Both the position numbers and the translations under genes were made by a program. A stretch of DNA of 64,000 bases. Origin: Klebsiella phage 150049. Below, piece by piece: positions 1,331 to 47,883 of this stretch (position 1 is its first letter; each line of letters opens with the position of its first letter). Location: sequence record OP045498.1; one strand, given 5' to 3'. Below the pieces are notes generated by a model that was given only the letters and a program-made list of their open reading frames with translations, was not told the origin of the DNA and made no database searches.

Positions 1331-1333
1331 TAA

Positions 1334-1362: not shown

Positions 1363-1369
1363 TTAATTT

Positions 1370-4166: not shown

Positions 4167-4169
4167 AAC

Positions 4170-6199: not shown

Positions 6200-6203
6200 T
6201 AAT

Positions 6204-6236
6204 AAACCCCAGTGGAAATCCACTGGGGTTTTCTTT
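6204..6236. terminator. Bidirectional intrinsic terminator between the convergent + strand replication block and the - strand late block
   Basis: 9-bp stem CCCCAGTGG/CCACTGGGG with a T-rich run on both sides. Confidence 0.7.
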
Positions 6237-8221: not shown

Positions 8222-8263
8222 TAACTAGTACCTTTATAAGGGGCCTAGGCCCCTACTGTATTA

Positions 8264-34033: not shown

Positions 34034-34116
34034 ACAATCTCCTTCTTTAAAAATGTATTTGCTTAGATCCCTCTATTTTGCTATAATATATTTATAAATT
34101 AAACAGAGGAACGATT

Positions 34117-34383: not shown

Positions 34384-34457
34384 TTAGTATAAAGTAAAAA
34401 GATCTCGAAGTAAACAAAAATTTTTATTTCTGGGATGAGGTACAGGTAGCAAACACA

Positions 34458-34772
34458 ATGCAAGATGTAGAAAAGTCCTTTCAGGAACCTGTTAACTTTG
34501 AAATAGATCCCAGGACTAAAGCAATACATGATGCGATTAACGAAATCATTCAAGACGTCATAGAAGATACAATAGAAGACGTGATGGGAACATCCTTCTT
34601 ACTAGAAGAGTCCGGCTTCGATGAAGTAATGGATCTTATCGGGACAGTCATAATGGTTCGTGCAATTGCTAGGATATTCCAAATACCAGGACTACAGGAG
34701 AAGCAAAGAGATGTCAGACGACAACAGAAGAAAGAACAGACGCGGGGAAGTGTACGAAAGTTGGATAAATAG
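34458..34772 (+). CDS. Hypothetical acidic protein, 104 aa
   Basis: ORF with plausible start. Partly overlaps the next small ORF. Confidence 0.4.
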   Translation: MQDVEKSFQEPVNFEIDPRTKAIHDAINEIIQDVIEDTIEDVMGTSFLLEESGFDEVMDLIGTVIMVRAIARIFQIPGLQEKQRDVRRQQKKEQTRGSVRKLDK

Positions 34773-34948
34773 TTTCGGATTCGGAACTGTATTATTCTTT
34801 ATCTTTGTACTCTTTTGGTTAGCAGCTATGGCGGGGTGGTTATAATGGAAGTAGTAATTATTGCTTTACTAGTTGTGGTAATTATCGGGCAGTGCATTCT
34901 AGATAACCACTTAGCTCGTATCGAACGTAAGCTGCGGGGAGATAAATA

Positions 34949-35194
34949 ATGTTTAGCTTTGTAGCTATCTTCATTATCGGGGTGCTTGCGGGAATCTTCG
35001 GAACACTCGGGGCTATTAACAAGCATCGGGAATATGTTGCGGGAGTATCGCGGGAGCTTTCGGAAAGGGAGCGGAGGTTTGCGGAGAAACGTGCGGAGTT
35101 TGAGCGGGAGTGGTCGGATGGATCTCGGGCATCGCGGAGGAGATTTCGTATGTCAGAATCGGGGGATAAGCCAGTAGATAGGAGAAGCTCATGA
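34949..35194 (+). CDS. Hypothetical small membrane protein (N-terminal TM helix, Arg/Glu-rich tail), 81 aa
   Basis: TM segment FSFVAIFIIGVLAGIFGTLGAI, then charged repeats. Lies in an unusual CGGGAG-rich island. Confidence 0.4.
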   Translation: MFSFVAIFIIGVLAGIFGTLGAINKHREYVAGVSRELSERERRFAEKRAEFEREWSDGSRASRRRFRMSESGDKPVDRRSS

Positions 35195-35406
35195 AAGAAT
35201 TCGGGCGGTTTTTCGGGGAGTTTGAGATAACTCAAGAAGAACTAGAAAAGATGGGCATCACTCAGGAGTTGCTACAGGTTCTTCCTAAGTCTTCGGAAAT
35301 TCCAGAAGGATTTATGAGATTTGATGAAGCTATTGAGTATATCAATAATCTTGTTAAGACTGACCCTCTATGGCAGTCCATTCTCAAGCAGTCAGTCCAT
35401 AAATAG
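35191..35406 (+). CDS. Hypothetical protein, 71 aa
   Basis: ATGA-coupled to the previous ORF. Confidence 0.4.
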   Translation: MKEFGRFFGEFEITQEELEKMGITQELLQVLPKSSEIPEGFMRFDEAIEYINNLVKTDPLWQSILKQSVHK

Positions 35407-35564
35407 CGCTAATTTGACTTTTGCCAAATCTCATAAGATTACACATGAAGGTGTGCCCAGAGGTTCCCTAGATGAGAATGAGTCTCATTACCGCCCCGGT
35501 ACTTAGCAAGCTAATAGTCACACCATGTTATCGTTACACAGTGTGACTATTTTATTTTTAATTG

Positions 35565-36299
35565 TTAGGCAACTTTTAATTTATCAATGAATTGTTGCGG
35601 AGTGGTACTATATTCCGCGCGTTCTTCCTCGGTCATACCTTCCCAACACATTTTTAAACGTTCGGCTAGGAATTGATAATCGTTATCATCATCTAACGAT
35701 TCATCAATAAAGGTTTCACCGATCAATGTTACCCCGATTGATAGGATATCATTAACGGCTTGAGCGTCCAGCGTTTTAAATCCAGCACTTGCCGCCGCTG
35801 ATAATACACCTTTATGATCATCAATCATCGTAAAATCAGCGTTAGGATATAGCTGTTTAAACAGTTCAAAGTAATAAGACTTATATACAGCGTCTTTGCT
35901 GTGATATATTTCGCTAACCTTACCCGCTTCAAAGTATTTATGTAATGTATCGCGGGAAAATACGCGAATATTACTATTTCCGCGCCCTCTTAGACTTTGT
36001 TTACGCAAGAAATAATAATCAGATTTACCCATTAAGCGAGCGGTACAAATAAGGTTTAAGGTATTGGGATCATTCATACATTGGCGCATATATTCAACCA
36101 ATGGCAATAAAGAATCCTGCATAATTAAATCATGCTTGCAGGCTTCGCGGGAATATTTATTTAAATCTAAATTCCCATTATCATCAAAACAAGGCCCGAC
36201 ACGGTGCATTGAGTTAATGATTGTACCGTCTAAATCCCAAATCATAACGCGGGAAATATGCGGGAAAGTGCGGGTAATATTCATGTTGACTTGATTCAT
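35565..36299 (-). CDS. dmp: 5'-deoxyribonucleotidase (T5 pre-early Dmp-like, HAD family), 244 aa
   Basis: HAD motif I (MIWDLDGTIIN). Size is the same as T5 Dmp (244 aa). Position near the inferred left terminus, as in T5. Confidence 0.8.
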   Translation of the reverse strand: MNQVNMNITRTFPHISRVMIWDLDGTIINSMHRVGPCFDDNGNLDLNKYSREACKHDLIMQDSLLPLVEYMRQCMNDPNTLNLICTARLMGKSDYYFLRKQSLRGRGNSNIRVFSRDTLHKYFEAGKVSEIYHSKDAVYKSYYFELFKQLYPNADFTMIDDHKGVLSAAASAGFKTLDAQAVNDILSIGVTLIGETFIDESLDDDNDYQFLAERLKMCWEGMTEEERAEYSTTPQQFIDKLKVA

Positions 36300-36386
36300 T
36301 TGTTACATTCTCCATTTAAGGGATTTAGGTTAATTCAATCTTGCCAGCTAATTATATTGGATTAGCTGGCAATGTTCAATTAACTA

Positions 36387-36779
36387 TTAGTTAGTGAGGC
36401 CATACGCTAGCGCGTCACCGATAAAGCTAAGATCTTCACCATGTACGCTAGAGCGAATCCCCGCGCAAGTGTAAACCATCGCGCTAGCTTCGGGATTGCA
36501 GACCGGACACGGCTTAACAACTGCAAACGCTAGACCGGATTTAAGCGCATCAATAATAATTGTTTGCACTGTCAAAGTATCAGCGTAAACGCCTTTTGCT
36601 TTTGTATGGCTTGCCACTTTGCCGGTATCATAAGCAAAGGTAGTAACCTGCAAAGCGTCGTTATAATTCAGCAAATCAAAATTAACTTGCCCCGCCTCGA
36701 CGTGATAACGTTCACCATTAGAATAAACTAAAACGATGGAAGAAGTAGCACGATCAAAAGGAATGTTTTGGTTTTTCAT
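36387..36779 (-). CDS. Hypothetical pre-early protein, 130 aa
   Basis: ORF between A1 and dmp, same strand. Confidence 0.5.
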   Translation of the reverse strand: MKNQNIPFDRATSSIVLVYSNGERYHVEAGQVNFDLLNYNDALQVTTFAYDTGKVASHTKAKGVYADTLTVQTIIIDALKSGLAFAVVKPCPVCNPEASAMVYTCAGIRSSVHGEDLSFIGDALAYGLTN

Positions 36780-36815
36780 GTTTATGACTCCAGATTATTT
36801 AATTACGGGATTAAT

Positions 36816-37073
36816 TTATTTAATTGCAATTGTTAATTGATACGGCGTTAATTCGCCGTTATTAGTAATACTTTGATCATCTAACCATTCCATAAAGTCA
36901 GAATAATCATTAAACGTTAATACGTCATTATCACGGGTATCAACTGCAATAATACAACCTGTATTCGTCGGACTAGCCAACATATAATCGAATTGGTATA
37001 CCTTGCCGCATTCCATATCATCCGGCGTTATATACTGCTTTTTATCCAGTGTTTTAGGTAATACAATATTCAT
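36816..37073 (-). CDS. Hypothetical pre-early protein, 85 aa
   Basis: ORF downstream of A1, same strand. Confidence 0.45.
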   Translation of the reverse strand: MNIVLPKTLDKKQYITPDDMECGKVYQFDYMLASPTNTGCIIAVDTRDNDVLTFNDYSDFMEWLDDQSITNNGELTPYQLTIAIK

Positions 37074-37125
37074 TTAATAAACCTTTTATTAATGGCGGTA
37101 TATTTCAACCGCCGATTAAATTTAA

Positions 37126-38790
37126 TTATGCAAAGAATTTACCGTTCTTAAAGTCAATCAATGTTCTTTGACCGTTTGCATAGGTAATTAAATGCGTTTG
37201 CGTCCAGCTTGACGCGCCCACGTTGTAGCCCATATCAAGGGAACCAGCAACGCCAGCGGTATAAACGCCGCCGTAAATGCTAGCCGTGTGAGTGTGACCA
37301 GTGTTAAGGCGTCCAAGTTTCTTAAACTGCTTAGGATTGCCCCGACTGCCGTTAATGCCATTGTGACCATGTACGCCGCATTCAATGCCAGCGATTTTAA
37401 ACGACTGGTCAGTAGTCAGGAAAATAGCGTTAAATTCGCATCCTGCGACGTTCCGCAAGGCGTAATCTAGCACGTTAAAGGTATCATCCTTTTCAGCAAT
37501 AGCGGCGTAAATCGCAGCGTTTAGACGGTGATACAATTCCGCGTTTGCGGGATCGTCTTTGATGTTAGCATTACGATCATCCAGCCAACGAGATAACGCT
37601 AGATCATGGTTAGATTCAACAATGATTGTTTGAGAGAAATCACGCTCCATAGATTCCAACACGCGACCGGTATCGATAAGATCATCTAGAACTTTGTCAC
37701 GTCCGGCGGCGTATTGTTTAGCAAGGAATACACCACTAGCGCGGTTATGATGATTGCGGGATGTAAAATCGTGCACGTCATGGACAAACTGATATTTAGG
37801 CTTGAGAATATCAAGCAAGCTGTTTTCACTAGCCCATGACGCAACGGCGCATTCATCATCTAATTTTTCGGCGTGAATATCACCATATTGCAAGCCTAAA
37901 ACGTGTCCAGACGTTTCATAACATCCGGCAGGAGTAGCGCAAATATTCAAATCATAAAACATTCCGCTTTCGTCCATTGTTTCAAGCTGGCGCACAAAAA
38001 ATTCGCCGTCGTCGTCAAACTCCACCAGCAAAGCGCCGAAATTATGCAGCGCCTCGGCTTTTTGACCTGCTTTCTGCTGAATGTAGTTTTTAAGCGTAGC
38101 CGTTCCGGTTGAATACATACGGCGCACTACTTCACCTTTTAACGCTGGCACACTTTCAGCGGTAATTTTAGCGTGACCAATTGCCAGACCTTCAATATTT
38201 AAAGCCGTGGCGGTTTCTGCGAATCCTGAAAGCGGATAGTCTGCCGTTGGTAACACGTTAATTTCAGCCATGAAAGCAAAACGGCGATTATTTAAAAATA
38301 CGTTTTTCTCGCAAATATATTTATTAAATGCGGGATCGTATTTAATGCCTTCGTTACCTTCTCCATTCTGGAAGCCGTTTTTATTGTAAATGAATTTACT
38401 AACCAGCAATTCACCGCCGATATATTCAGCGAATTTTTCCAGACTTGCTAAAAAGTTTTTATGCGGGAAAGTATTATTTTGAATCGACGTTAGAATAAAA
38501 CGGCGACCGGATTTAACTTCCCACTGTTCCACGGTACTAGAAACAATTCCCGCCGCTTCGGGGCGATCATCATTTTTAATCGCCTTTTCAGCTTTTGCCG
38601 CTTTCGGTTTTGCTGGCTTATTTGCTTCCAACCAGTCGCAAATTGCGGTTGAATGTTTCGTTGTATCGTAAACAGCTTTTGATATATCGTCGCAAACTTC
38701 CAGCTTAGTAGCGCGTAAACGTTTACCGTAGAAATTAAAATCAGCGGCAAGTTTAACGATCTGGGCTTGTTTTTCTGCGGAAATATTCAT
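37126..38790 (-). CDS. A1: Pre-early protein A1-like (host DNA degradation / second-step transfer factor) with calcineurin-like metallophosphoesterase motifs, 554 aa
   Basis: Size about the same as T5 A1 (556 aa). Motifs GDIHAE...D, ...GNHD-like ESNHD..., GHTHTAS. Order dmp - A1 - A2 as in the T5 terminal repeat. Confidence 0.8.
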   Translation of the reverse strand: MNISAEKQAQIVKLAADFNFYGKRLRATKLEVCDDISKAVYDTTKHSTAICDWLEANKPAKPKAAKAEKAIKNDDRPEAAGIVSSTVEQWEVKSGRRFILTSIQNNTFPHKNFLASLEKFAEYIGGELLVSKFIYNKNGFQNGEGNEGIKYDPAFNKYICEKNVFLNNRRFAFMAEINVLPTADYPLSGFAETATALNIEGLAIGHAKITAESVPALKGEVVRRMYSTGTATLKNYIQQKAGQKAEALHNFGALLVEFDDDGEFFVRQLETMDESGMFYDLNICATPAGCYETSGHVLGLQYGDIHAEKLDDECAVASWASENSLLDILKPKYQFVHDVHDFTSRNHHNRASGVFLAKQYAAGRDKVLDDLIDTGRVLESMERDFSQTIIVESNHDLALSRWLDDRNANIKDDPANAELYHRLNAAIYAAIAEKDDTFNVLDYALRNVAGCEFNAIFLTTDQSFKIAGIECGVHGHNGINGSRGNPKQFKKLGRLNTGHTHTASIYGGVYTAGVAGSLDMGYNVGASSWTQTHLITYANGQRTLIDFKNGKFFA

Positions 38791-38899
38791 AACTAATTCA
38801 ACTCCTATAAAGGGATAAAGATTAAAGCTGGCAATATTGCCAAATATAACGCCTTGCCTGAAGTGAGGACAATTTAAAAGGCGTTATAATTTGCAACAT

Positions 38900-39124
38900 T
38901 TAATTAAGCGGCATTAAACTAGAACAAAAGCCAAATACAATGCCAATTGTAAGAAAGATAATTGACAGATATTTTTGAATGTTCGCGTTTTTGCGGAAAT
39001 TATTTGCGGCGTAAACGTTATTAATTCCGATTATTGCTAGAATTGACCGCGTATAATTCAGAATAAAAGCGGCGGCAATAATAAATAAACCTAAAATAAA
39101 CGCTTCGCTAGGATAAAAGATCAA
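38900..39124 (-). CDS. Hypothetical small membrane protein, 74 aa (two TM helices)
   Basis: Hydrophobic ORF between A2 and A1. Confidence 0.4.
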   Translation of the reverse strand: MIFYPSEAFILGLFIIAAAFILNYTRSILAIIGINNVYAANNFRKNANIQKYLSIIFLTIGIVFGFCSSLMPLN

Positions 39125-39174
39125 GATTATTCTCCTTTAAGGGATAGCGGGGAATATTCCCCGCTAATTAAAAT

Positions 39175-39591
39175 TTATTCACCTGCGGCCTGTTTTACTT
39201 CCTCCGCTACGCCTAACAATTGCGCTACAGCGTCCAGAGTTTCAAGTTTAGCACTTTCAAGGCTTGCCAGATCGTCGGCATCTTTTACGATACCTGAATC
39301 AATGGCGTGTTTAGCGATGACGCGCACATAGTGAGCTTTACGGACACTAGACCCGCCGCCAACTTTACGCGGTTTATCGCTTTTCTGGTAGGCTTTTGCG
39401 CTTGTCAGTTTAGAACGTACAGAAACAGGACTTGCAGCGCCAACGGCGGCGGCAATTTCTTTTAAGCCGTCACTATTCGCAAACTCAATCCCGCTTTTAG
39501 CGACCATTTCAGAATACATAGAAACAGCCTTTTCGGTGTTTTCTTCGTTCCAAGAGAATTTTGCGGTTTTTTCGGTTTTAACGTTAGACAT
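39175..39591 (-). CDS. A2: Pre-early protein A2-like (DNA-binding partner of A1), 138 aa
   Basis: Size and position immediately upstream of A1. Confidence 0.55.
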   Translation of the reverse strand: MSNVKTEKTAKFSWNEENTEKAVSMYSEMVAKSGIEFANSDGLKEIAAAVGAASPVSVRSKLTSAKAYQKSDKPRKVGGGSSVRKAHYVRVIAKHAIDSGIVKDADDLASLESAKLETLDAVAQLLGVAEEVKQAAGE

Positions 39592-39691
39592 AATTTAATA
39601 CTCCATTCAATTATTAATTAAGGGATTATGATTAACTAATGTTAATCCATATATTCCCCATATTTCAGGGGAATATAAAAGTAACACTAAT

Positions 39692-39943
39692 TTATGCTAT
39701 AGCTTGCCATTTATCATCTTTCTGAATGATCTTTACAACGTCGCCAGATTTAACGCGAACATTATAAATAGGCTTGCCGTTGTTACTGCGTTCCGTTTCC
39801 GCATAGACCGCTTCAATCTTATCAAAGGGATCAAGCGCCGCACCTTTGATACGTTCGGCTTTTCCGGTTAATTCATCAGTTTTAGTTACAAAAGGAATGA
39901 AAACAGATTGACCTACTTTCGGCGCGGTAATAACGTTTTGCAT
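39692..39943 (-). CDS. Hypothetical pre-early protein, 83 aa
   Basis: ORF with SD, upstream of A2. Confidence 0.45.
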   Translation of the reverse strand: MQNVITAPKVGQSVFIPFVTKTDELTGKAERIKGAALDPFDKIEAVYAETERSNNGKPIYNVRVKSGDVVKIIQKDDKWQAIA

Positions 39944-40107
39944 TTTTAATACTCCGGTTTATTGGGGATTATTCCACAATAGCGCCTCGATACTTTGAAA
40001 CGCTATTAGATTATAATCCGCTAGGAGTTAGCCTAAACATTACCGTTATCCAAATTTTTAAAGAGCAGTTACTACGGGGAACATCTTAAAACCTATCGGC
40101 TAGCGTG

Positions 40108-40326
40108 TCAAGCGTTTTTTAAACTTTTTTCGATTTGATGTGAGTTATATAAATCAATCATTATATTACGCCACACCATTTCCAGACCTTGCTGCTTACC
40201 TTTCTTGTATTGCTTGAATCTGTATTTTACAGATCGTTGCGCTACTGTCAACAAATTTTTTGTTCTGCTATCTAATGCGCTAGCAGGTTTTGCACTAATC
40301 ACTAAAGCGTTTTTTGATTTGATCAT
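40108..40326 (-). CDS. Hypothetical small basic protein, 72 aa, flanked by a 25-bp inverted repeat
   Basis: Lys/Arg-rich (pI likely above 10). Flanked by IR arms at 40077-40101 and 40358-40382. Confidence 0.45.
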   Translation of the reverse strand: MIKSKNALVISAKPASALDSRTKNLLTVAQRSVKYRFKQYKKGKQQGLEMVWRNIMIDLYNSHQIEKSLKNA

Positions 40327-40787
40327 ATCTGCGATTCCTTATAATGTATAAGTTTACCGCCGATAGGCTTTAAGATGTTCCCTAATTTTTAAAGAGCGTG
40401 GCGGTAAACTTCCCCGCCGTTGTAATCTGGCCTTTCGTTTCCGTCTTGCCGTCCTACGAGATAAATAATAGCAAATTAAGCGAAAGAGACAAGCGTATTT
40501 TTGTAAAGAAGTGTAAAGACAAACGCCACCGCACCACGTCCAGCGGCGCACTAAATTTAATGAAACGGGCGCGCGAATAACACCAAAACAACCATTTTAG
40601 CAAGTAATTTTTTCATTTATATCTGCTCTAGGGTACTTGACAAAATCTAAAATCCTCGTGGTGACGATAACGGCTAGTAGGCAATGCACTTGCCTAGCTT
40701 TTCCTTTGATGCGCTTAGAATCGCTTACAGAGCGTTTTAGACCCTGTTAATAACTTATACAAAAAGCAAAAATGAAATTTAATGAGT

Positions 40788-41165
40788 TATCCACTTGATT
40801 TTTCAAAAAAGTATTTTCTGCTGTTATTTTTCATTGACAAATAAGTTTAGACGTGCATTGATTGGTTAGCAGACTAATAATCCCTAGGATGATAATCACG
40901 CTGGTGGATTGTAACAGCCGAAATAGTTAGCAGACTATTAATACTCTAAAAACCTATTAGCCAACTAACTATTTCATATTATATAATATACTTATAAATT
41001 AAAGAGAAATAATAACTATAAGAAACTATCGGCTAAGTAAGAACCACTATCATTTAGGTTATTCACAAAGTTATCCACAGCACAAAATAACTTGACGCAA
41101 TAGGCGACGTTTTGGTGACTTATCCACAGACTTATATACAGGTTATCCTACTGTATAAATATACA
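40788..41165 (+). promoter_or_regulatory. Cluster of DnaA-box-like sequences, all in the same orientation: TTATCCACT 40788-40796, TTATTCACA 41059-41067, TTATCCACA 41071-41079, TTATCCACA 41120-41128, TTATCCTAC 41142-41150; plus the 16-mer CTGTATAAATATACAG at 41150-41165
   Basis: Read directly. Sits in the non-coding region 40600-41415. Confidence 0.6.
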
Positions 41166-41415
41166 GGGTAAAAGGGTAGCAGTAACAACCGCAATCAAAT
41201 TTAAGCGGCCTAGAACGCATTCTAAGCGGTTTTCTCACTGCTACCCTTATTATAATAAAGCCTTGTGTACGCTTACAGAGAGCTAGAAATAGAAAACGCG
41301 CGGTTATCATAAAAACAGGCAGTAAGCAAGAAATAAAAAACCTTTTCTTTTTTCTTGCCCCTAGCGAACAATTATCTATATCATTCACTCACCGATTAAC
41401 GAGGGAGACAAAGAA

Positions 41416-42411
41416 ATGTCTACTGTAAGAATTGCAGTACCAGCAAACGCCACTATTATTAAGGGTAGTTTGCGCAACCTGCTAGACGGATCAAGTCCAG
41501 CAAGCCTACAACATACGGCGGCAATGGTTGAAAAGATTCACGATGATATTTTAGATAATAATGATACTCATTATTGTTTAAGTGATTTCACACAACTACT
41601 AGACCCTACCCGCGTTCTAGTGCTTTACAACCGTGACTATCACATCATGCGAAATCAGCGGGGAAGCGATATTGATTTTATCATTGTAGGTCACGACGAA
41701 AAAAGCTATATTGCCCGTGGTTACAATGTACAAGAAAAGGAAATGGTTTTCGCTACTCGCGTAAATGGTATTAATTCCAGCGATGTAGAAGATTTACTAT
41801 CTAGTATTTGGGGCGAATTGACAAGCGCCATTAAACGTGCTGATAGTGACGCAATCGAAACAACTGGCGTATTGTGTTTTGAACGCGCTAGCGGTAACAT
41901 GTTGATCCCTAACGATTATTTAGGGTATGGGAATGAATCAAACATTGCAAACGCTGGATTTACACTAAAACCAGTTGACAACGTAGCAAAACAGGCTGTA
42001 AACTCTCAAACTTCAAGCGCAAATGCGCAAACTACTGAAAATAAAGGAAATATTATGTCTAAAGTATCTTCTATCGTTGCTGCTAACAAATCCGCCGTTG
42101 TAAACGCTGCTAAACTGGAAGCGGGTAAAATTGCATTGACTCAAATTACAAAAGTAGCGGCTAAAAAAGCGCCGTTTATGATTAAAGGTTATATTGATAC
42201 TCCGATTGGTCGCGTAGTGATCGCTAACCTGTTAAGCGTAGCGGTTGACCAGTACGCCCCGACTAACGCAAAAGCTAAAGCGGTAGCAGGCGCGGCAATG
42301 GAAGCGGCAATGTTGGAAATGGTGCAGAGTTTCAATATTGCTGAAATGATCGATGAAATGGTAAAAGGTATTGACATTTCTACCTTTACCCAAAGCGCCG
42401 AAACAGAATAA
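41416..42411 (+). CDS. Hypothetical protein, 331 aa (opposite-strand cluster in the terminal-repeat region)
   Basis: Good SD (GAGGGAGACAAAGAAATG). Followed by an intrinsic terminator at 42420-42447. C-terminal half is Ala/Lys-rich. Confidence 0.6.
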   Translation: MSTVRIAVPANATIIKGSLRNLLDGSSPASLQHTAAMVEKIHDDILDNNDTHYCLSDFTQLLDPTRVLVLYNRDYHIMRNQRGSDIDFIIVGHDEKSYIARGYNVQEKEMVFATRVNGINSSDVEDLLSSIWGELTSAIKRADSDAIETTGVLCFERASGNMLIPNDYLGYGNESNIANAGFTLKPVDNVAKQAVNSQTSSANAQTTENKGNIMSKVSSIVAANKSAVVNAAKLEAGKIALTQITKVAAKKAPFMIKGYIDTPIGRVVIANLLSVAVDQYAPTNAKAKAVAGAAMEAAMLEMVQSFNIAEMIDEMVKGIDISTFTQSAETE

Positions 42412-42475
42412 TAATTACTAGCGGGGATTATTTCCCCGCTTTACTATTTCCCTGTTAATTGTTAGGAGACTAATT

Positions 42476-42970
42476 ATGTCAGAAGAAAAATATGGCTTTT
42501 CGCTAGAAAGTGTGAATGAAGCTAAACACGATATGATCGTTTTAGTTGATTGTCATACTGGCTATTGCGGGGAGGGCTGGACGGAGGAACATTTTGTTCC
42601 CGCTGGCTGTGATCTGGACGCTTTCGCAAACGAACACGCATATGATAATGCTTCTCGTTTCGGTAGCGATGGGGAAGAAGATGAAGAAACAGGGGAATGG
42701 ATTGAAAATGATAATGTATATGCGAGTCTTTATCATTATCAATTGAGTAAGTCCGGTACTTATGTAAATGGCGGCGATCCTATTAATACCGTTATGAAAC
42801 TAATTATTAAACACGGTGGCGCGGAAATAATTGGTAACAAGGCGTTATTATACGCAAATCGATTAAAACAGCTTGTTTATATTCCTGATAATTCCCGTTG
42901 GGATGAATATGCCGTTTTACAGAAAGAATTAAAACGCTGTTTCAACATTGAAGCGTTAGAAATAGTCTAA
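42476..42970 (+). CDS. Hypothetical acidic protein, 164 aa
   Basis: SD AGGAGACTAATTATG. Followed by a terminator hairpin GGTCGCCTATGTTGGCGGCC plus T-run at 42981-43011. Confidence 0.55.
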   Translation: MSEEKYGFSLESVNEAKHDMIVLVDCHTGYCGEGWTEEHFVPAGCDLDAFANEHAYDNASRFGSDGEEDEETGEWIENDNVYASLYHYQLSKSGTYVNGGDPINTVMKLIIKHGGAEIIGNKALLYANRLKQLVYIPDNSRWDEYAVLQKELKRCFNIEALEIV

Positions 42971-43076
42971 TGTAAAGTTTTGTAAAGGTCGCCTATGTTG
43001 GCGGCCTTTTTTGTTATAATGCCTTTACACCGAAACGGTGGATTGAAAATTTCCCTGATTTCTAGGAGGCGTTAAA

Positions 43077-43307
43077 ATGGTTGCTTTCTCTTCTTCTGAC
43101 TCTCTTTTCACTGGTAAAGGTTGGGTGTCTAATCGCTGGATTATTGATCAGATGGTTTCTGAATTTGGGATTGGTAAAACTTATGTTACCATTCAGGCGC
43201 TTTATGATAATGATAAGATTGACCAGCAAACCGCCGGATTTTTGCTGGACACGTTGAAATCAGAACATTGCACCAAAAAGCAAGCGGCGAAAATTGTTTT
43301 AATGTAA
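43077..43307 (+). CDS. Hypothetical protein, 76 aa
   Basis: SD AGGAGGCGTTAAAATG. Terminator at 43308-43338 (ACGGGGCGTTACTTTCGCCCC). Confidence 0.5.
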   Translation: MVAFSSSDSLFTGKGWVSNRWIIDQMVSEFGIGKTYVTIQALYDNDKIDQQTAGFLLDTLKSEHCTKKQAAKIVLM

Positions 43308-43354
43308 ATAATAACGGGGCGTTACTTTCGCCCCTCATTCCCTTACTAGGAGTC

Positions 43355-43573
43355 ATGCAAATGTTAAAGAATGTTTCCCTTGCCCGTTCTAAAGGTTTTA
43401 AGCTGGTGGATGTTAACACGTTTGAGCGTCCAGATTGTAAAATCGAATATGTAGCACGCAACAAAAACGCGTTTCGTGTTACTGAAAAGAAATTTGACAA
43501 GCGCGGAAATTTGGTAGCCGAAACGGTTAAACACTTTGCCACCTTTTACGCTGCTTTTCGTGGGGTATTATGA
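43355..43573 (+). CDS. Hypothetical basic protein, about 72 aa (the start at 43355 or 43361 is preferred over the track's 43268)
   Basis: SD TAGGAGTCATGCAAATG. The track ORF starting at 43268 overlaps the terminator of the previous gene, so the later start was chosen. Confidence 0.45.
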   Translation: MQMLKNVSLARSKGFKLVDVNTFERPDCKIEYVARNKNAFRVTEKKFDKRGNLVAETVKHFATFYAAFRGVL

Positions 43574-43682
43574 GATCCTTATATATTGCTCTAGCGTTTG
43601 CTACCGTTGGCGTTGTTTGCTCATTCGCTGCATTTGTTTTAAAAATGTACCTGATATTTTCCCAGCTTTAGGAGCTTGACAA

Positions 43683-44027
43683 ATGGTTATATACGAGGGT
43701 AATCGTTTTGTTACTAATTGCCGTCCGGCATTATTAGCAAGCTATTTAAATCAGCTTTCACCAGTTTATAAAGGCGTGGTTAATATCTATGAAGGCAAAG
43801 CACATTATAAGATTAATGCCGTTGTTGCTCGCGAGCTTGCCTTCCAGTTTCTTACTTTTGGCGCATGTGATGTACAGGTTATGGGTGAGCCATTAGTAGC
43901 AGAAAATGAAAATGAATTTATTGACATTTTCCGCAAAGTATGTACAGAGCGCCTGATTATGAAAGGCGCATATATTCAATCAACCGCTGAAAGTATCGAA
44001 ACAGCGTTTCGAAAGGTGGCGCAATGA
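43683..44027 (+). CDS. Hypothetical protein, 114 aa
   Basis: SD AGGAGCTTGACAAATG. ATGA-coupled to the next ORF. Confidence 0.5.
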   Translation: MVIYEGNRFVTNCRPALLASYLNQLSPVYKGVVNIYEGKAHYKINAVVARELAFQFLTFGACDVQVMGEPLVAENENEFIDIFRKVCTERLIMKGAYIQSTAESIETAFRKVAQ

Positions 44028-44224
44028 CTAAAGATGAAGCGTTAGAAAAAATGAAACAAGGTTTCAAAGTTAGTAATCAATATTTTACTAGCGATGAATT
44101 TTTGTACATGAAAGAAAACGGCGTGATCATGTCGGAAGATGGTTACAATTTTAATGATTGGTTTTTCAATATTCGCAAGGGGGAGGAATGGAAGCTAGAC
44201 GGTTGGAGCGTTTACCGTGAATAG
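44024..44224 (+). CDS. Hypothetical protein, 66 aa
   Basis: Translationally coupled to the previous ORF. Confidence 0.45.
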   Translation: MTKDEALEKMKQGFKVSNQYFTSDEFLYMKENGVIMSEDGYNFNDWFFNIRKGEEWKLDGWSVYRE

Positions 44225-44347
44225 CTGGTGGCGAAAAACACAAAGCCATAAATCTAATAATACCGCTGGGAAACATTCCCAGCGTTTACGATTTGGTAAT
44301 GGCTTTACAATGATATTGATAATCATTCTCATTCTAGGAGCAATGGC

Positions 44348-44587
44348 ATGGCTGTAAGAATTTTACGATATGTAGAACGTAAAGAAACCGATATTATGCA
44401 ACATCATTTAACTGATGGGCAATACGCGCAATTTTTAGAAATGCGGAAAAGCGGAGCTAGTACGGCGGCGCTAGGGGCGTGGATCAATTCAGTCTCAACG
44501 TGTACGCATTTTGACTCATATGGATATACGCCAGCCGAAACCGTCCAGATCTTTGACGACTACGAGAAGGAATACATAGCAGACTAA
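44348..44587 (+). CDS. Hypothetical protein, 79 aa
   Basis: SD TAGGAGCAATGGCATG. Terminator at 44588-44622 (ACGGGGCGCAACTACCGGCCCCGCC plus T-run). Confidence 0.5.
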   Translation: MAVRILRYVERKETDIMQHHLTDGQYAQFLEMRKSGASTAALGAWINSVSTCTHFDSYGYTPAETVQIFDDYEKEYIAD

Positions 44588-44734
44588 TAATAACGGGGCG
44601 CAACTACCGGCCCCGCCTTTTCTGCCTGCAAACAAATTTCCCCTTATTAAAATACCTCCTCCAAAAATAAACGCGTTAGGATGCGTTACAGAGCGTTTTA
44701 GAGCTATATTAGAGTTATTCACTACGCAGGAATA

Positions 44735-44842
44735 CTGTATAAATATACAGTAGAATAACCTGTTGATAAGTCTGTTGATAACGCCTCAAAATCGCTAGGA
44801 TTTTGTCAAGTCAAATCGTGCTGTTAATAAACCTGTGGATAA
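44735..44842 (-). promoter_or_regulatory. Second DnaA-box cluster, in the opposite orientation to the first: TGTTGATAA 44761-44769, TGTTGATAA 44773-44781, TGTGGATAA 44834-44842 (reverse complements of TTATCAACA/TTATCCACA); plus CTGTATAAATATACAG at 44735-44750
   Basis: Read directly. Mirror image of the cluster at 40788-41165. Confidence 0.6.
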
Positions 44843-44870
44843 CTTAAATAACAGTGTTTCTCACTTCGCT

Positions 44871-45015
44871 TTCTAAATGCAAATCATTCTCATTATGCGA
44901 CTCATTCGCATTCCGCCAATCAAATGATAACCATTCTCATTCCTCTTTCTAAACGCGAATCATTCTCATTCGCATTCAACTTCTCAAATGCGAATCAATC
45001 TCATTATCATTCGCA
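44871..45015 (+). repeat. Three degenerate tandem repeats of about 35-45 bp (TTCTMAAYGCRAATCAWTCTCATT...CATTCGCATT)
   Basis: Unit starts near 44871, 44947 and 44980, read directly. Contains the TGCRAATC core shared with the downstream 13-mer array. Confidence 0.6.
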
Positions 45016-45056
45016 TTTCGGCAGGCAGGGCATTTTCATTTTTGCCCTGCGCTTTT

Positions 45057-45794
45057 GTGCAAATCCGACATTTGCCCCCACGGATTACGTGCCAGCGTGC
45101 ATGTGCGAATCCGACAATTTTTGGTAGTGTGCAAATCCGATGGGAAATATTTTTATAGTGTGCAAATACGACAATGAATTTTCCTAAAAACTCGGGCAGA
45201 CTCGTGCTGCGCACAAATCCAGCCGTATATGTGCAAATACGACATGAAATTTCTAGGAATGAGATGTGCAGATCCTACAAGATTTTTGTGACTTCGATGA
45301 TAGGGTGTGTGATTGTGTGGGTTTGGGGAGAAGTGCGAATCCGATGAGATTTTGGGAGGAACTACGGGAGGAGCAGCGGTGATGGTGCTTTAGCACCGGT
45401 TTGCTGCGTTTTTGGGGGTAATGCGGGATGTTTTGGCTAGAATTGAGATTAGGGGAGATTATGCGAAATTTTATTAGCAAAATAGGGCAAAATAGCTTGA
45501 CAAGTGAAAATTCCTGTGGCTCTAAAAACTCAGGCAATCATGGGCCTTCGGCCCGAAATAATGCTGCTATTTTCAGTGTTCCTAAAAACTTTGGAGACTC
45601 CTATCAATGTGCAAATCCGACCATAAATTTCTAGAAACACAGTGTGCAAATCCGATAGTAATTTCCAGAAATGTGTTTTGGAAAAATGTCTACTAGAAAT
45701 AACCGCCCTGTATTAAACCGCCCTGTATTAAACCGCCTATTGCTGGAGTTTTTAGGAACAGGAGAAACTGCCCTATAACATGTGCAAATACGAC
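45057..45794 (+). repeat. Dispersed direct-repeat array of a 13-bp motif GTGC(A/G)AAT(C/A)CGA(C/T): 9 good copies (45057, 45103, 45129, 45160, 45231, 45333, 45609, 45644, 45782) plus 2 degenerate (45209, 45266). Interspersed are 4 copies of CCTARAAACTYRGGNRNNC and a tandem AACCGCCCTGTATT x2
   Basis: Read directly. All copies are on the same strand. No ORF longer than 70 codons. Candidate injection-stop signal / terminal-repeat boundary / protein-binding array. Confidence 0.7.
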
Positions 45795-46148
45795 AGGATT
45801 TTCCTAGAAACTTAGGAGTCTACTAGAAAGTGTTGTGCCATCCTAGGAAGAGCGGCGGCAACAAGTGTATCATCTTGAATGTAAATTATGTGGACAAAAG
45901 TTTTACCTTTTATTTAAATATAAGATCCCCCAATCTCGTAAGTCTGCTGCTCTAGGCGTTCAAGATCTGTATGCTAATCCCGTGATAACTGCTGCAGAAT
46001 ACATCCTAACGCCAGAGGCGCTGGTGTACTCTTCGAGTTGGGATAGCAATAATCTTGTTGCCTAGAGCTAAAAACAGAAGTTGTTTTTAATCTATGAGAT
46101 TATTATAACATGTGCCTTAATGAGTTGTCAAGAAGATTTTGTTAACGT

Positions 46149-46880
46149 TTATTCCTTCCGCTTGTATTTGAGAACGATACCCTTCGAGACCATGAAGAGG
46201 AAAGTTGCAAGATAGGAATGTGGGGATTTTAGCGCATCATAATCTACAGTCCCGAAAGAACCTTCGCCAAAAACTTCGGAGTTCTCAAAGGTTGGTAGTA
46301 AACGTGCTAATCCGACAGCTCCTAGAATCTTAAAGAATTGATCCCAGTCATTTAACATTGCTTTATGTGCAGACTGTAAGATTAACGGCATCTCTATTTT
46401 CTTTTCGAGACATAGATGAACCTGCGCAATCGTAGAAGCAATCCCTAGCAATACTTCATCTTTTGTATAAGGGAAGCCTTCTTCTTTTCTTTGGAGTCTA
46501 GGAAGATGATCATATTCACAACGTTTAGGTGGAATAAACTTTTCATCAGGATAGAGTTCTAATGCAACCTTAACATTCCCTTCTCTAAATGTAGGAAGTT
46601 CCTGATCCGCAAATACATGGTATGAATTTGCTTTGAACCCTACAATATTATCACCAACAGAATTGATGATCTTTCTCATTGCAATATAAGCGGGAGATAA
46701 TGTTACGAAATTTTCTTCTTTATTATATTTAACAATTCCAGCTTCTGTGTAAGCTGCGGGATGAAACTCAGAACAGAATGCTACTGCGTGAGCTTCATCT
46801 GGAGTTAGCTCAGAAACACATTTACCATCTGCATTTCTAGCTAACTTAATAATAGTCTTTAAGTTCTCACTAATACTCAT
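46149..46880 (-). CDS. Hypothetical early protein, 243 aa
   Basis: First gene of the - strand early block. Abuts the next gene (ATGA overlap). Confidence 0.55.
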   Translation of the reverse strand: MSISENLKTIIKLARNADGKCVSELTPDEAHAVAFCSEFHPAAYTEAGIVKYNKEENFVTLSPAYIAMRKIINSVGDNIVGFKANSYHVFADQELPTFREGNVKVALELYPDEKFIPPKRCEYDHLPRLQRKEEGFPYTKDEVLLGIASTIAQVHLCLEKKIEMPLILQSAHKAMLNDWDQFFKILGAVGLARLLPTFENSEVFGEGSFGTVDYDALKSPHSYLATFLFMVSKGIVLKYKRKE

Positions 46881-47227
46881 ATATCCCAGGCCTGATCTCC
46901 AGTGGACTTTTTAACTGGTCTTTCTTTTAATGTTATGACTCTATCTATAGCGGGATCTAATTTAATCCATATTAGATTTAGTTGAGCAACAATATGGGAC
47001 ATGTTTCTAGCTGTGAAAGGTATATCTTTTGGCAGCCTAAATACTAGCTCTTTGAGATCATTCATTAAATGAGCATCAGCAAAGAATAAGTACGATAGCC
47101 TTTCCACACGTTCATATTCATCCTCTTTAATTTCAAAGATCCCAATAGTTTCTTCGTTATTAAAAGACTTTTCATTGAGAAAAGCCACCTTGCAGTGGCC
47201 TATAGTAAATTCAGTAACTAGTTCCAT
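46877..47227 (-). CDS. Hypothetical early protein, 116 aa
   Basis: Coupled ORF. Confidence 0.5.
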   Translation of the reverse strand: MELVTEFTIGHCKVAFLNEKSFNNEETIGIFEIKEDEYERVERLSYLFFADAHLMNDLKELVFRLPKDIPFTARNMSHIVAQLNLIWIKLDPAIDRVITLKERPVKKSTGDQAWDI

Positions 47228-47883
47228 TAATTAAAACCCTTACTATTAGTCAGATCAACAAGAGCTTCCATAACAGCATCAGCTAAGCTCTCATTCCTAC
47301 TAGATGGTGTACTCAAATGAATAGTGTATGAGTTCCTAGAAACTCCAGAGTCCTCGAACTGTTTCTGTGCTATCTCTTGGAACTTCTCGGTAGATCCCGT
47401 ACCACCATCTGCAATCTTTAGAGCATCAATTTTAGTACCGATTACCATTCCATTAGCTAGAATGGGTTCTCCACTAGCTTCCCCAAACTTATATGATTGC
47501 GTATTACTTACCACGCCACCACAAGGAACATTGTGCATATCCGACATTAATCTTTTATCAGAATTAGTCAGTGCAGTAATATGCCAAGGGTCATTACGAG
47601 GAATAGTTGTAGTACTCGGGCGATTCACTTCAGTCTTCACGAGTTTGTATCCTGCATCGATCAGTGCATTAATCAGATTATCAGCCGGGATGCGAGCTGT
47701 GCCAAAGATCTTACGAGCATTCATGAGCTTAGCCTGAAACTCTTTGCAAGCCTGAAGATCAATGTGCAAAAACGACAGTTGCATAGATTTAAACTGTACT
47801 GTAGCAGTCAGATCTTTAAAGCTGTAATCCCATGTGTCGAGTTCATGATCTGCAACTACTTTAATGGTTTGTTGTGTAAACAT
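47227..47883 (-). CDS. Hypothetical early protein, 218 aa
   Basis: Coupled ORF. Confidence 0.5.
   Translation of the reverse strand: MFTQQTIKVVADHELDTWDYSFKDLTATVQFKSMQLSFLHIDLQACKEFQAKLMNARKIFGTARIPADNLINALIDAGYKLVKTEVNRPSTTTIPRNDPWHITALTNSDKRLMSDMHNVPCGGVVSNTQSYKFGEASGEPILANGMVIGTKIDALKIADGGTGSTEKFQEIAQKQFEDSGVSRNSYTIHLSTPSSRNESLADAVMEALVDLTNSKGFN

What the first reader, a model, noticed from the sequence alone, without database searches (positions are those of the whole stretch)
41416..44622. Opposite-strand seven-ORF cluster inside the pre-early (terminal-repeat) region, every gene followed by its own intrinsic terminator
Everything around it (dmp, A1, A2, small pre-early ORFs, and all early genes) is on the - strand. 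Yet 41416-44587 carries seven + strand ORFs (331, 164, 76, about 72, 114, 66 and 79 aa) with strong SDs, and four clean rho-independent terminators (42420-42447, 42981-43011, 43308-43338, 44588-44622) split them into separate transcription units. I recognise none of the products; the set includes an Ala/Lys-rich 331-aa protein and an acidic 164-aa protein. In T5, this part of the first-step-transfer DNA encodes host-takeover and anti-defence functions, most still uncharacterised. A differently oriented, insulated module here is a prime candidate for an undescribed host-shutoff or anti-immunity system.
Basis: partly seen in the sequence, partly recalled or inferred. Interest (0 to 1): 0.8.

Follow-up and report, generated by a model that had tools for sequence, protein, structure and literature searches.

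The report
Known T5 pre-early right-arm genes
The opposite-strand gene cluster is the already described second transcription arm of the first-injected DNA of T5-like phages; it carries a known host-DNA nickase, a known toxic protein and several swappable small genes, one of which has the fold of a phage protein that soaks up bacterial immune signals.

Summary
The + strand block at 41416-44622 is real, but it is neither unusual nor undescribed. The window is an Epseptimavirus (T5-like) phage. The block is the known second, inversely oriented pre-early transcription unit of the terminal repeat. T5 has T5.011-T5.017 in the same place and orientation, and the papers on T5 and BF23 say so explicitly.

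Four window ORFs are syntenic orthologues of T5.011 (toxic, DUF7566), T5.012, T5.014 and T5.015. T5.015 is the Ung-dependent abasic-site nickase (86% identity). Three ORFs (164, 66 and 79 aa) are cassettes absent from T5 but common in relatives. Two small membrane-peptide genes (33 and 46 aa) were missed, so there are nine genes, all under purifying selection.

"Every gene followed by its own terminator" is overstated. One has no T-tract, and one folds no better than shuffled sequence. ORFs 4 to 7 are packed with overlapping start and stop codons.

The parts
41355..41384 (+). Sigma-70-type promoter for the + strand arm: -35 TTGCCC, 18-nt spacer, -10 TATCAT, preceded by an A-rich stretch.
   Evidence: Found by the scan. 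It aligns with the promoter annotated at T5 6411-6489 upstream of T5.011. Both hexamers and the downstream leader are conserved in 8 phages while the spacer varies. Annor et al. state that the promoter upstream of gene 011 was characterised experimentally.
41416..42411 (+). ORF1, 331 aa: orthologue of T5.011, Pfam DUF7566. It has an N-terminal domain and an Ala/Lys-rich C-terminal part.
   Evidence: PF24450, E 2.6e-135, full length. 56% identity to T5.011 in the same position. pN/pS 0.23-0.48. T5.011 is toxic and disorganises the nucleoid. No solved-structure relative by sequence.
42420..42440 (+). Hairpin T1 after ORF1: 8-bp stem with an interrupted T-tract (TTTACTATTT). Probably a partial terminator.
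   Evidence: -15.7 kcal/mol, z -4.7. The stem is kept and the loop varies in relatives.
42476..42970 (+). ORF2, 164 aa, acidic (pI 4.55, net charge -17). A cassette gene absent from T5. Function unknown.
42984..43020 (+). Terminator T2 (stem 42984-43009 plus T-tract), overlapping an extended -10 motif TGTTATAAT (43012-43020) that could restart transcription for ORF3 onward.
   Evidence: -17 kcal/mol, z -5.05. The equivalent hairpin is the terminator annotated after T5.011 in T5 (7534-7559). The TGTTATAAT motif is read directly from the sequence and is conserved in all relatives including T5. Promoter activity is inferred, not shown.
43077..43307 (+). ORF3, 76 aa: orthologue of T5.012. Function unknown; not toxic in T5.
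   Evidence: 88% identity to T5.012. phrog_5145. pN/pS 0.03-0.34. Not among the toxic genes in either T5 expression screen.
43316..43334 (+). Hairpin T3 after ORF3: GGGGCG/CGCCCC stem with no T-tract on the + strand. An RNA hairpin, not a canonical terminator.
   Evidence: z -3.5. Faergetype and Shin27 have GGGGAT/ATCCCC at the same place, with both sides changed and pairing kept.
43361..43573 (+). ORF4, 70 aa, basic (pI 10.1): orthologue of T5.014. It is the most conserved gene of the arm. Function unknown. RefSeq and PHROGs label it as the Ung-dependent endonuclease, apparently by a numbering slip.
   Evidence: 93% identity to T5.014. pN/pS 0-0.11. phrog_4227 label. For the labelling evidence. 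T5.014 was cloned and was not toxic.
43570..43671 (+). Missed gene: a 33-aa hydrophobic peptide with one predicted membrane span. Its start overlaps the ORF4 stop (ATGA).
   Evidence: Annotated as bas28_0189 in IrmaTschudi. Conserved in 4 relatives with mostly synonymous changes. Kyte-Doolittle 19-residue maximum 2.47. SIY1lw has an unrelated 35-aa hydrophobic peptide in the same slot.
43683..44027 (+). ORF5, 114 aa: orthologue of T5.015, the Ung-dependent nickase of abasic sites.
   Evidence: 86% identity over the full length to locus tag T5.015 (AAS77062.1). UniRef names that protein 'DNA-(apurinic or apyrimidinic site) endonuclease'. Function is from Mahata et al. 2021. pN/pS 0.07-0.26.
44024..44224 (+). 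ORF6, 66 aa, acidic: a shortened protein with the Tad2/AcrIIA7 (DUF2829) fold. A cassette gene absent from T5 and EscoHU1.
44217..44357 (+). Missed gene: a 46-aa protein with a basic N-terminus and a C-terminal hydrophobic span. It overlaps the ORF6 stop and the ORF7 start, and contains hairpin 44264-44284.
   Evidence: Annotated as bas28_0186. Substitutions are mostly synonymous, including an AGC-to-TCC serine change in Shin27. Hairpin z -4.1.
44348..44587 (+). ORF7, 79 aa, acidic (pI 5.0). A cassette gene absent from T5. Function unknown.
   Evidence: No T5 match; 96-100% identical in 6 relatives. phrog_12351, unknown function. pN/pS 0-0.17. No PDB relative.
44594..44622 (+). Hairpin T4 at the end of the arm: 6-bp stem, 10-nt loop, tail CCTTTTCTG. 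A weak terminator candidate.
   Evidence: z -1.1; 35 of 200 shuffles fold as well. Conserved in relatives. T5 has a different, stronger terminator at the equivalent end (annotated 9275-9296).
41032..41166 (.). Left arm of the 135-nt inverted repeat that brackets the block. It contains DnaA boxes (TTATCCACA at 41071 and 41120) and equals Davison's IRC-spacer-IRD in Repeat Region 2.
44735..44869 (.). Right arm of the inverted repeat. It equals IRD'-spacer-IRC' at the start of Repeat Region 3, the injection-stop region, and has DnaA and DnaA-like boxes at 44761, 44773 and 44834.

Best explanation
The block is the Epseptimavirus version of the known 'right arm' of the T5-type pre-early region. This is the second, inversely oriented transcription unit of the first-step-transfer DNA.

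[quoted passage not shown] It probably also re-initiates at an extended -10 element just after terminator T2.

The products are individually acting, non-essential accessory proteins for host takeover:
- a T5.011-type toxic protein that disorganises the nucleoid;
- the T5.015-type nickase, which uses host Ung to find and cut abasic sites in uracil-containing host DNA;
- the conserved small proteins T5.012 and T5.014;
- two small membrane peptides;
- three exchangeable cassette genes, one of which has a Tad2/AcrIIA7 fold.

Shown here: identity, synteny, orientation, promoter conservation, purifying selection and the fold of ORF6. Taken from the literature on T5: timing of expression, toxicity, the nickase mechanism and dispensability. 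Inferred: that the orthologues in this phage do the same, the restart promoter, and any function for ORF2, ORF6 and ORF7.
For: Same layout in T5 and EscoHU1, inside the annotated left terminal repeats.

Orthology and order of T5.011.012.014 and .015.

The block is found in 525 phage records, 129 of which cover at least 80% of the 4-kb query.

Orientation relative to A2 is colinear wherever one match spans both arms: 155 records cover at least 80% of the query in one place, and so do all such rows of the listed sample.

The promoter is conserved with the T5 promoter annotated upstream of T5.011.

pN/pS is below 0.5 for all nine ORFs.

Literature:
- opposite-strand transcription and high variability of this region;
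- 'two inversely oriented transcriptional units' in BF23;
- 011, 013 and 015 are toxic, and the hegG-017 deletion is viable;
- T5.015 mechanism;
- pre-early transcripts and 10 pre-early proteins detected in the Tequintavirus Bas33.

The bracketing inverted repeat equals the described IRC-spacer-IRD / IRD'-spacer-IRC'.
Against: There are no expression data for this particular phage.

Three of the nine genes have no T5 counterpart, so their pre-early role is inferred from position alone.

The toxic two-span membrane protein T5.013 is absent here.

Epseptimaviruses differ from Tequintaviruses in sensitivity to restriction, so functions need not transfer one to one.
Confidence: 0.9

Rival explanations
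1. One reading: the block is a single, insulated, previously undescribed multi-gene system for host shut-off or anti-immunity, whose components work together.
For: The genes are clustered and co-oriented, lie in early-injected DNA, and are mostly of unknown function. Hairpins follow ORF1, ORF2 and ORF3.
Against: The arm is described in T5 and BF23.

Gene content is mosaic. ORF2, ORF6 and ORF7 are absent from T5. ORF6 is absent from EscoHU1 and Shin27. Extra genes are present in IrmaTschudi, Shin27 and faergetype.

T5.011 and T5.015 are each toxic when expressed alone.

ORF6 homologues occur alone in unrelated phage groups.

The whole arm is dispensable in T5.
Confidence: 0.05
2. The arm is mainly a counter-defence island: a hot-spot where T5-like phages collect small inhibitors of bacterial immunity that must be made before the rest of the genome enters. 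ORF6 would be an immune-signal sponge, and the acidic ORF2 and ORF7 would be protein or DNA mimics.
For: Cassette-like gain and loss at fixed slots.

ORF6 has a Tad2/AcrIIA7 fold, and its family is spread across T4-like, Vi1-like and FelixO1-like phages.

ORF2, ORF6 and ORF7 are acidic.

The Tad2 authors argue that sponges must be made early in infection (Discussion passage).

Tad2-family members inhibit Thoeris, CBASS and Pycsar.
Against: The characterised members of the arm (011, 013, 015) act on host DNA or the membrane, not on defence systems.

ORF6 lacks the 23-residue segment that carries most SPO1 Tad2 ligand contacts and fails the Pfam cut-off.

ORF2 has no structural analogue at all.

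Epseptimaviruses are reported to be sensitive to restriction-modification.
Confidence: 0.3
3. The block is an invertible or mobile segment: the flanking 135-nt inverted repeats mediate inversion, which would explain the opposite orientation.
For: A 135-nt inverted repeat, 74% complementary, brackets the block exactly.
Against: Relative orientation to A2 is the same wherever a match spans both arms: 155 records cover at least 80% of the query in one colinear place, and so do all such rows of the listed sample. It is also the same in all 8 loci examined.

The repeat is only 74% matched and carries paired DnaA boxes at fixed positions. The literature interprets it as part of the injection-stop apparatus.

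No recombinase gene is present in the block.
Confidence: 0.03

Closest known systems
Bacteriophage T5 pre-early genes T5.011-T5.017 (right arm of the first-step-transfer DNA, left terminal repeat 6495-9157 of AY543070/NC_005859)
   Same: [quoted passage not shown] Orientation opposite to dmp-A1-A2. Conserved promoter upstream of the first gene. Orthologues of T5.011, T5.012, T5.014 and T5.015 in the same order. A terminator after the first part of the arm.
   Different: The window lacks T5.013, T5.016 and T5.017. It has instead a 164-aa acidic protein with its own hairpin inserted exactly between the T5.011 stop and the T5 terminator. It also has a 33-aa and a 46-aa membrane peptide, a 66-aa Tad2-fold protein and a 79-aa acidic protein. 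The T5.011 orthologue is only 56% identical.
Pre-early right arm of Epseptimavirus phages such as IrmaTschudi (Bas28), EscoHU1, JNwz02, SIY1lw and faergetype
   Same: Nearly the same gene set at 92-97% nucleotide identity. IrmaTschudi annotates all nine genes found here.
   Different: There are single-cassette differences. An extra 102-aa gene lies between ORF1 and ORF2 in IrmaTschudi and Shin27. A T5.013-like 49-aa membrane protein is present in faergetype and Shin27. ORF6 is absent from EscoHU1 and Shin27. SIY1lw has a different 35-aa peptide in place of the 33-aa one.
T5.015, Ung-dependent AP-site nickase (Mahata et al. 2021, PMC8201957)
   Same: ORF5 is 86% identical over all 114 residues and occupies the same slot.
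   Different: Activity was not tested here. Public RefSeq and PHROG labels attach this function to the neighbouring 70-aa protein instead.
Tad2 / DUF2829 family (SPO1 Gp34.65, ModTad2, HgmTad2, AcrIIA7)
   Different: 66 aa against 86-104 aa. It lacks the segment equivalent to SPO1 Tad2 residues about 59-81, which carries I63, T65, D67, H71, W73, S76, T78 and D79. It scores below the Pfam gathering score. The wide family profile no longer finds Tad2 by sequence. Oligomeric state and ligand are unknown.

Membership tests
T5-type pre-early right arm (inversely oriented FST transcription unit) | Lies inside the long terminal repeat, between Repeat Region 2 (IRC-spacer-IRD) and Repeat Region 3 (IRD'-spacer-IRC', the injection-stop region). 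| tested here: met
   The EscoHU1 LTR (1-9914) maps to window about 35455-45500. The inverted-repeat arms with DnaA boxes flank the block as described by Davison.
T5-type pre-early right arm (inversely oriented FST transcription unit) | Transcribed from the strand opposite to dmp, A1 and A2. | tested here: met
   ORF strands. Same arrangement in T5, EscoHU1, IrmaTschudi and SIY1lw. Colinear with A2 in the 155 records that cover at least 80% of the query in one place.
T5-type pre-early right arm (inversely oriented FST transcription unit) | Syntenic orthologues of T5.011, T5.012, T5.014 and T5.015. | tested here: met
   56%, 88%, 93% and 86% identity, in the same order.
T5-type pre-early right arm (inversely oriented FST transcription unit) | Sigma-70 promoter upstream of the T5.011 orthologue. 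| tested here: met
   TTGCCC-18-TATCAT at 41355-41384 aligns with the annotated T5 promoter. The hexamers are conserved in 8 phages. Sequence level only.
T5-type pre-early right arm (inversely oriented FST transcription unit) | Expressed during the pause after first-step transfer. | not testable with these tools
   Shown for T5 and Bas33 in the literature, not for this phage.
T5.015 Ung-dependent AP-site nickase | Full-length sequence orthology to T5.015 (AAS77062.1). | tested here: met
   86% identity over 114 aa. Locus-tag identity checked in AY543070 and in UniRef naming.
T5.015 Ung-dependent AP-site nickase | Binds Ung, nicks abasic sites, and is toxic only in ung+ cells. | not testable with these tools
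   Biochemistry from PMC8201957.
Pfam DUF7566 (PF24450) | Full-length match above the gathering score. | tested here: met
   ORF1: 451.8 bits against a cut-off of 27, covering positions 1-331 of the protein and 1-336 of the model.
DNA N6-adenine methyltransferase (the label some databases give ORF1 homologues) | A methyltransferase domain and the (D/N/S)PP(Y/F/W) catalytic motif. | tested here: not met
   ORF1 matches only DUF7566 in Pfam. All 120 listed homologues carry only PF24450. There is no PP dipeptide anywhere in ORF1 (sequence).
Tad2 / DUF2829 (PF11195) | Pfam Tad2-like match above the gathering score. | tested here: not met
   17.8 bits against a cut-off of 25, E 0.005. 22 of 111 family members give weak hits, the best at E 9.8e-6.
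Tad2 / DUF2829 (PF11195) | Tad2 fold: an N-terminal helix packed on a small antiparallel sheet. | tested here: met
Tad2 / DUF2829 (PF11195) | Ligand-contact residues of SPO1 Tad2 (W25, N26, I63, T65, D67, H71, W73, S76, T78, D79). | tested here: not met
   Only W25 is kept as an aromatic residue (F21). N26 is T22. The segment carrying I63-D79 has no alignable counterpart, and ORF6 is 23 residues shorter. Other Tad2 homologues use other pockets, so this does not exclude ligand binding.
Tad2 / DUF2829 (PF11195) | Homotetramer that sequesters an immune signalling nucleotide and inhibits Thoeris, CBASS or Pycsar. | not testable with these tools
   Needs protein biochemistry and plaque assays.
Intrinsic (rho-independent) terminator | A GC-rich hairpin followed directly by a T-tract on the transcribed strand. 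| tested here: inconclusive
   T2 meets it fully. T1 and the 44264-44284 hairpin have interrupted tracts. T3 has none. T4 has a weak stem (z -1.1) and a short tract.

The most novel reading that the evidence does not exclude
ORF6 (44024-44224) would define a minimal, 66-residue branch of the Tad2/AcrIIA7 fold. T5-like phages would deliver it in their first-injected DNA, and many T4-like, Vi1-like and FelixO1-like phages also carry it, as a sponge or inhibitor of a signalling-based defence. It would use a pocket different from that of SPO1 Tad2. The right arm as a whole would then be a pre-early counter-defence cassette site, with the acidic, fold-orphan ORF2 as a second inhibitor of unknown target.
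Probability: 0.25. Interest if true: 0.55.

Novelty: already known. Interest (0 to 1): 0.25.

Why it matters
As a genome feature it does not change anything. The two-armed layout of the T5 pre-early region, its promoter, its flanking DnaA-box inverted repeats and its variability are all in the literature. This phage's version is 92-97% identical to deposited genomes.

The value of the check lies in four by-products.

1. It gives a corrected gene map of nine genes, with a realistic picture of transcription: one strong terminator followed by a probable restart, then a translationally coupled six-gene run.
2. It flags two database labels that look wrong: the Ung-nickase label on the 70-aa T5.014 family, and 'DNA N-6-adenine methyltransferase' on the DUF7566 family. 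Both are spreading through RefSeq, PHROGs or UniRef.
3. It gives a concrete, cheap hypothesis for one of the many unknown pre-early genes. ORF6 has a Tad2/AcrIIA7 fold and can be tested against Thoeris, CBASS and Pycsar panels.
4. It identifies ORF2 as a well-folded acidic protein with no structural relative among solved structures.

The functions of most first-step-transfer genes remain an acknowledged open question in T5 biology.

Tried and rejected
- Pfam, PHROGs, NCBIfam and PADLOC scans of all ORFs gave only DUF7566, function-less PHROGs and the weak Tad2-like hit.
- Sequence searches of solved structures found nothing for ORF1, ORF2, ORF4, ORF5 or ORF7. ORF3 gave a chance-level match (E 0.0096, 20 residues) to an engineered I-CreI chain, which I disregard.
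- The AlphaFold-database Foldseek library was not available.
- The wide ORF6 family profile (111 sequences) lost the Tad2 match in the PDB sequence search and in hhalign. Homology to Tad2 therefore rests on the fold and on the narrow profile.
- Rfam found nothing in 40300-46200.
- DnaA boxes are not enriched in the window as a whole (20 found against 18.3 expected). Only their paired placement in the inverted repeat is meaningful, and that is already published.
- The inversion hypothesis was rejected.
- T5.016 and T5.017 are not Tad2-like and are not related to ORF6 or ORF7.
- The supplement of Mahata et al. (lysine mutants, primers) is not held, and Davison 2015 is not held.
Annor et al. report that 011 'resists functional predictions'.

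Full report
**What the window is.** The 4-kb stretch around the finding matches 525 phage records, nearly all T5-like phages of Salmonella, Escherichia and Klebsiella. The best match is Escherichia phage IrmaTschudi (Epseptimavirus, Demerecviridae) at 96.8% identity. The annotated left terminal repeat of phage EscoHU1 (1-9914) maps to window positions about 35455-45500. To the left of 35455 the window continues into the receptor-binding-protein region, and to the right into early genes, exactly as in the IrmaTschudi record. The window therefore comes from an assembly in which the two terminal repeats are collapsed into one copy. The finding (41416-44622) lies inside the terminal-repeat equivalent, that is, in first-step-transfer (FST) DNA.

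**Check of the observation: ORFs.** All seven + strand ORFs exist. Each stand-alone start has a (C/T)TAGGAG-type Shine-Dalgarno sequence, and GC skew turns positive over 41-46 kb, against negative skew in the flanking - strand regions. The fourth ORF most likely starts at ATG 43361 (70 aa). The SD lies 8 nt upstream of that codon, and T5 has no upstream ATG.

Two more genes were missed. One is a 33-aa hydrophobic peptide (43570-43671) whose ATG overlaps the ORF4 stop as ATGA. The other is a 46-aa protein with a C-terminal hydrophobic span (44217-44357) that overlaps both ORF6 and ORF7. Both are annotated in IrmaTschudi. Against seven relatives, all nine ORFs show an excess of synonymous change (pN/pS 0-0.48). 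This includes an AGC-to-TCC serine-to-serine change in the 46-aa ORF of Shin27. They are real genes.

**Check of the observation: terminators.** The claim holds only in part.
- T2 (42984-43009 plus TTTTTTGTT) is a textbook terminator (-17 kcal/mol, z -5.05).
- T3 (43316-43334, z -3.5) has no T-tract on the + strand. It is nevertheless maintained by changes on both sides of the stem in faergetype and Shin27.
- T4 (44594-44615) has a 6-bp stem and a 10-nt loop. It folds no better than shuffled sequence (z -1.1; 35 of 200 shuffles fold as well).

The generic scan finds 10 terminator-like sites in 39-47 kb, against 7.2 +/- 2.8 in shuffles. From ORF4 to ORF7 the six genes are tightly packed, all junctions but one being overlapping start/stop codons, with no terminator between them. 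The arm is therefore better described as follows:
- promoter, then ORF1, then T1;
- ORF2, then T2;
- ORF3, then a hairpin;
- a translationally coupled six-gene run, then a weak end signal.

Directly after T2 there is an extended -10 motif, TGTTATAAT (43012-43020), conserved in all relatives including T5. I infer that it restarts transcription. This is not shown.

**What it is.** T5 itself has the same architecture: T5.001-T5.010 (dmp, A1, A2, hdi, hegG) on one strand and T5.011-T5.017 on the other. T5 has an annotated promoter upstream of T5.011 and a terminator after it. The window ORFs map onto T5 as follows:

| Window ORF | T5 counterpart | Identity |
|---|---|---|
| ORF1 (331 aa) | T5.011 | 56% |
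| ORF2 (164 aa) | none | - |
| ORF3 (76 aa) | T5.012 | 88% |
| ORF4 (70 aa) | T5.014 | 93% |
| ORF5 (114 aa) | T5.015 | 86% |
| ORF6 (66 aa) | none | - |
| ORF7 (79 aa) | none | - |

The orthologues are in the same order and orientation as in T5, and ORF1 matches Pfam DUF7566 at E 2.6e-135. ORF2 and ORF7 are conserved in all six Epseptimavirus relatives examined, ORF6 in four of them. The promoter TTGCCC-18-TATCAT at 41355-41384 aligns with the T5 promoter. Both hexamers and the leader are conserved while the spacer varies.

The literature describes this arm explicitly. [quoted passage not shown] Annor et al. show the promoter upstream of 011 as experimentally characterised.

The 135-nt inverted repeat that I found bracketing the block (41032-41166 and 44735-44869) carries paired DnaA boxes. 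It is Davison's IRC-spacer-IRD / IRD'-spacer-IRC', which he proposes as part of the injection-stop signal.

I tested whether this repeat ever inverts the block. With a query running from A2 to ORF7, 155 records cover at least 80% of it in one colinear place. Every row of the listed sample that spans both arms is colinear. The orientation is fixed.

**How it works.** Identity, position, orientation and conservation are shown here. The rest comes from work on T5. After the first 8% of the genome enters, host RNA polymerase expresses the pre-early genes during a pause of 3-5 min. In the Tequintavirus Bas33, pre-early transcripts and ten pre-early proteins were detected when infection was arrested at this stage.

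T5.011, T5.013 and T5.015 are toxic when expressed alone. T5.011 disturbs nucleoid organisation and 'resists functional predictions'. T5.013 causes lysis. T5.015 binds host uracil-DNA glycosylase and nicks the abasic sites it makes, stopping replication and division. A T5 mutant lacking hegG through 017 is viable with smaller plaques, so the arm is accessory.

I therefore read the block as a set of individually acting host-takeover and accessory genes, not as one system. Gene content supports this reading:
- ORF2 with its hairpin T1 sits as an insertion exactly between the T5.011 stop and the T5 terminator.
- IrmaTschudi and Shin27 carry an extra 102-aa gene there.
- Faergetype and Shin27 carry a T5.013-like 49-aa membrane protein.
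- EscoHU1 and Shin27 lack ORF6.
- SIY1lw has an unrelated 35-aa hydrophobic peptide where this phage has the 33-aa one.

**A labelling problem.** RefSeq NC_005859 and PHROG 4227 attach 'endonuclease nicking abasic sites generated by host uracil glycosylase Ung' to the 70-aa T5.014. In the primary record AY543070, locus tag T5.015 is the 114-aa protein. Mahata et al. cloned T5.014 and T5.015 separately and found only 015 toxic. UniRef names the 114-aa protein the AP endonuclease, whereas the 70-aa protein is 'ORF015' only in another T5 record's numbering. The nickase in this window is therefore ORF5 (43683-44027), not ORF4.

Likewise, the UniRef label 'DNA N-6-adenine methyltransferase' on ORF1 homologues has no support. 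The only Pfam domain is DUF7566, and ORF1 has no PP dipeptide, so it cannot carry the (D/N/S)PP(Y/F/W) catalytic motif.

**ORF6.** This was the one lead beyond the literature. Sequence evidence:
- Pfam gives a sub-threshold Tad2-like hit (E 0.005, 17.8 bits against a cut-off of 25).
- The best solved-structure sequence match is SPO1 Gp34.65, the Thoeris anti-defence protein Tad2 (E 0.02).

An exhaustive profile search finds 584 clusters, mostly proteins of 60-70 aa. In the phage collection the family occurs in 442 records: about 70 T5-like, the rest T4-like, Vi1-like, FelixO1-like and others.

Against canonical function: ORF6 is 23 residues shorter than SPO1 Tad2 (89 aa). It has no counterpart for the segment carrying I63, T65, D67, H71, W73, S76, T78 and D79. 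Only W25 is kept, as F21. Tad2 homologues are known to use different pockets for His-ADPR, cyclic nucleotides and N7-cADPR, so a sponge function is possible but unproven. I put it at about one in four.

**Verdict.** These are pre-early genes of mostly unknown function, but the opposite-strand arrangement is the normal, published architecture of T5-like phages. Four of the seven ORFs are syntenic orthologues of annotated T5 genes, one of them with a known mechanism. Novelty: already known. Interest is low to moderate. It rests on the Tad2-fold assignment for ORF6, the fold-orphan ORF2, the corrected gene map and the two database labels that look wrong.

Noticed in passing
window 43361-43573 and 43683-44027; L002 (T5) 8086-8298 and 8300-8644: RefSeq NC_005859 and PHROG 4227 put the 'endonuclease nicking abasic sites generated by host Ung' label on the 70-aa T5.014 family. 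By locus tag (AY543070), by UniRef naming and by the cloning list of Mahata et al., the characterised T5.015 is the neighbouring 114-aa protein. The 70-aa protein is 'ORF015' only in another T5 record's numbering. The label has spread to many RefSeq phage records.
   Followed up: yes
window 41416-42411; L008 1917-2918: Many UniRef entries and some GenBank records call the DUF7566 (T5.011-like) protein 'DNA N-6-adenine methyltransferase'. No methyltransferase domain or (D/N/S)PP(Y/F/W) motif is present, so the label looks like a propagated error.
   Followed up: partly
Both are under purifying selection. The slot between the T5.014 and T5.015 orthologues holds unrelated small membrane peptides in different phages.
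   Followed up: yes
window 41032-41166 and 44735-44869: A 135-nt inverted repeat (74% complementary) with paired DnaA boxes and an exact 18-nt element, TACTGTATAAATATACAG, in both arms brackets the whole + strand arm. It corresponds to the published IRC-spacer-IRD / IRD'-spacer-IRC'. No inverted variant of the block was found in relatives.
   Followed up: yes
window 43012-43020: An extended -10 motif, TGTTATAAT, overlaps the T-tract of terminator T2. It is conserved in all seven relatives examined, including T5, which suggests terminate-and-restart between ORF2 and ORF3.
   Followed up: partly
window 44850-45800: The non-coding injection-stop region carries arrays of direct repeats: 7-9 copies of TGTGCAAATCCGAC-type units and 5 copies of a CATTCTCATT-type unit. 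This matches the DRD and DRE repeats described for T5.
   Followed up: no
window 33132-35455 and 45500-47500: The terminal-repeat equivalent is flanked on the left by the receptor-binding-protein region and on the right by early genes. The window therefore comes from an assembly with the two terminal repeats collapsed, not from a physical genome end.
   Followed up: partly
alignment A3 (ORF2 homologues P0193, P0196, P0197, P0199, P0200): Some homologues of the 164-aa acidic protein carry a 17-20-residue insertion with CPEC...C(E/P)DC, a zinc-ribbon-like motif, in the acidic loop where the window protein has DEETGE.
   Followed up: no
window 41143-41388 (- strand): An 81-aa GTG-started ORF on the - strand overlaps the promoter region of the + strand arm. 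It is annotated as a gene in EscoHU1 (EscoHU1_009). It is Cys- and Arg-rich and sits in the conserved non-coding repeat region, so it is probably not a real gene.
   Followed up: no
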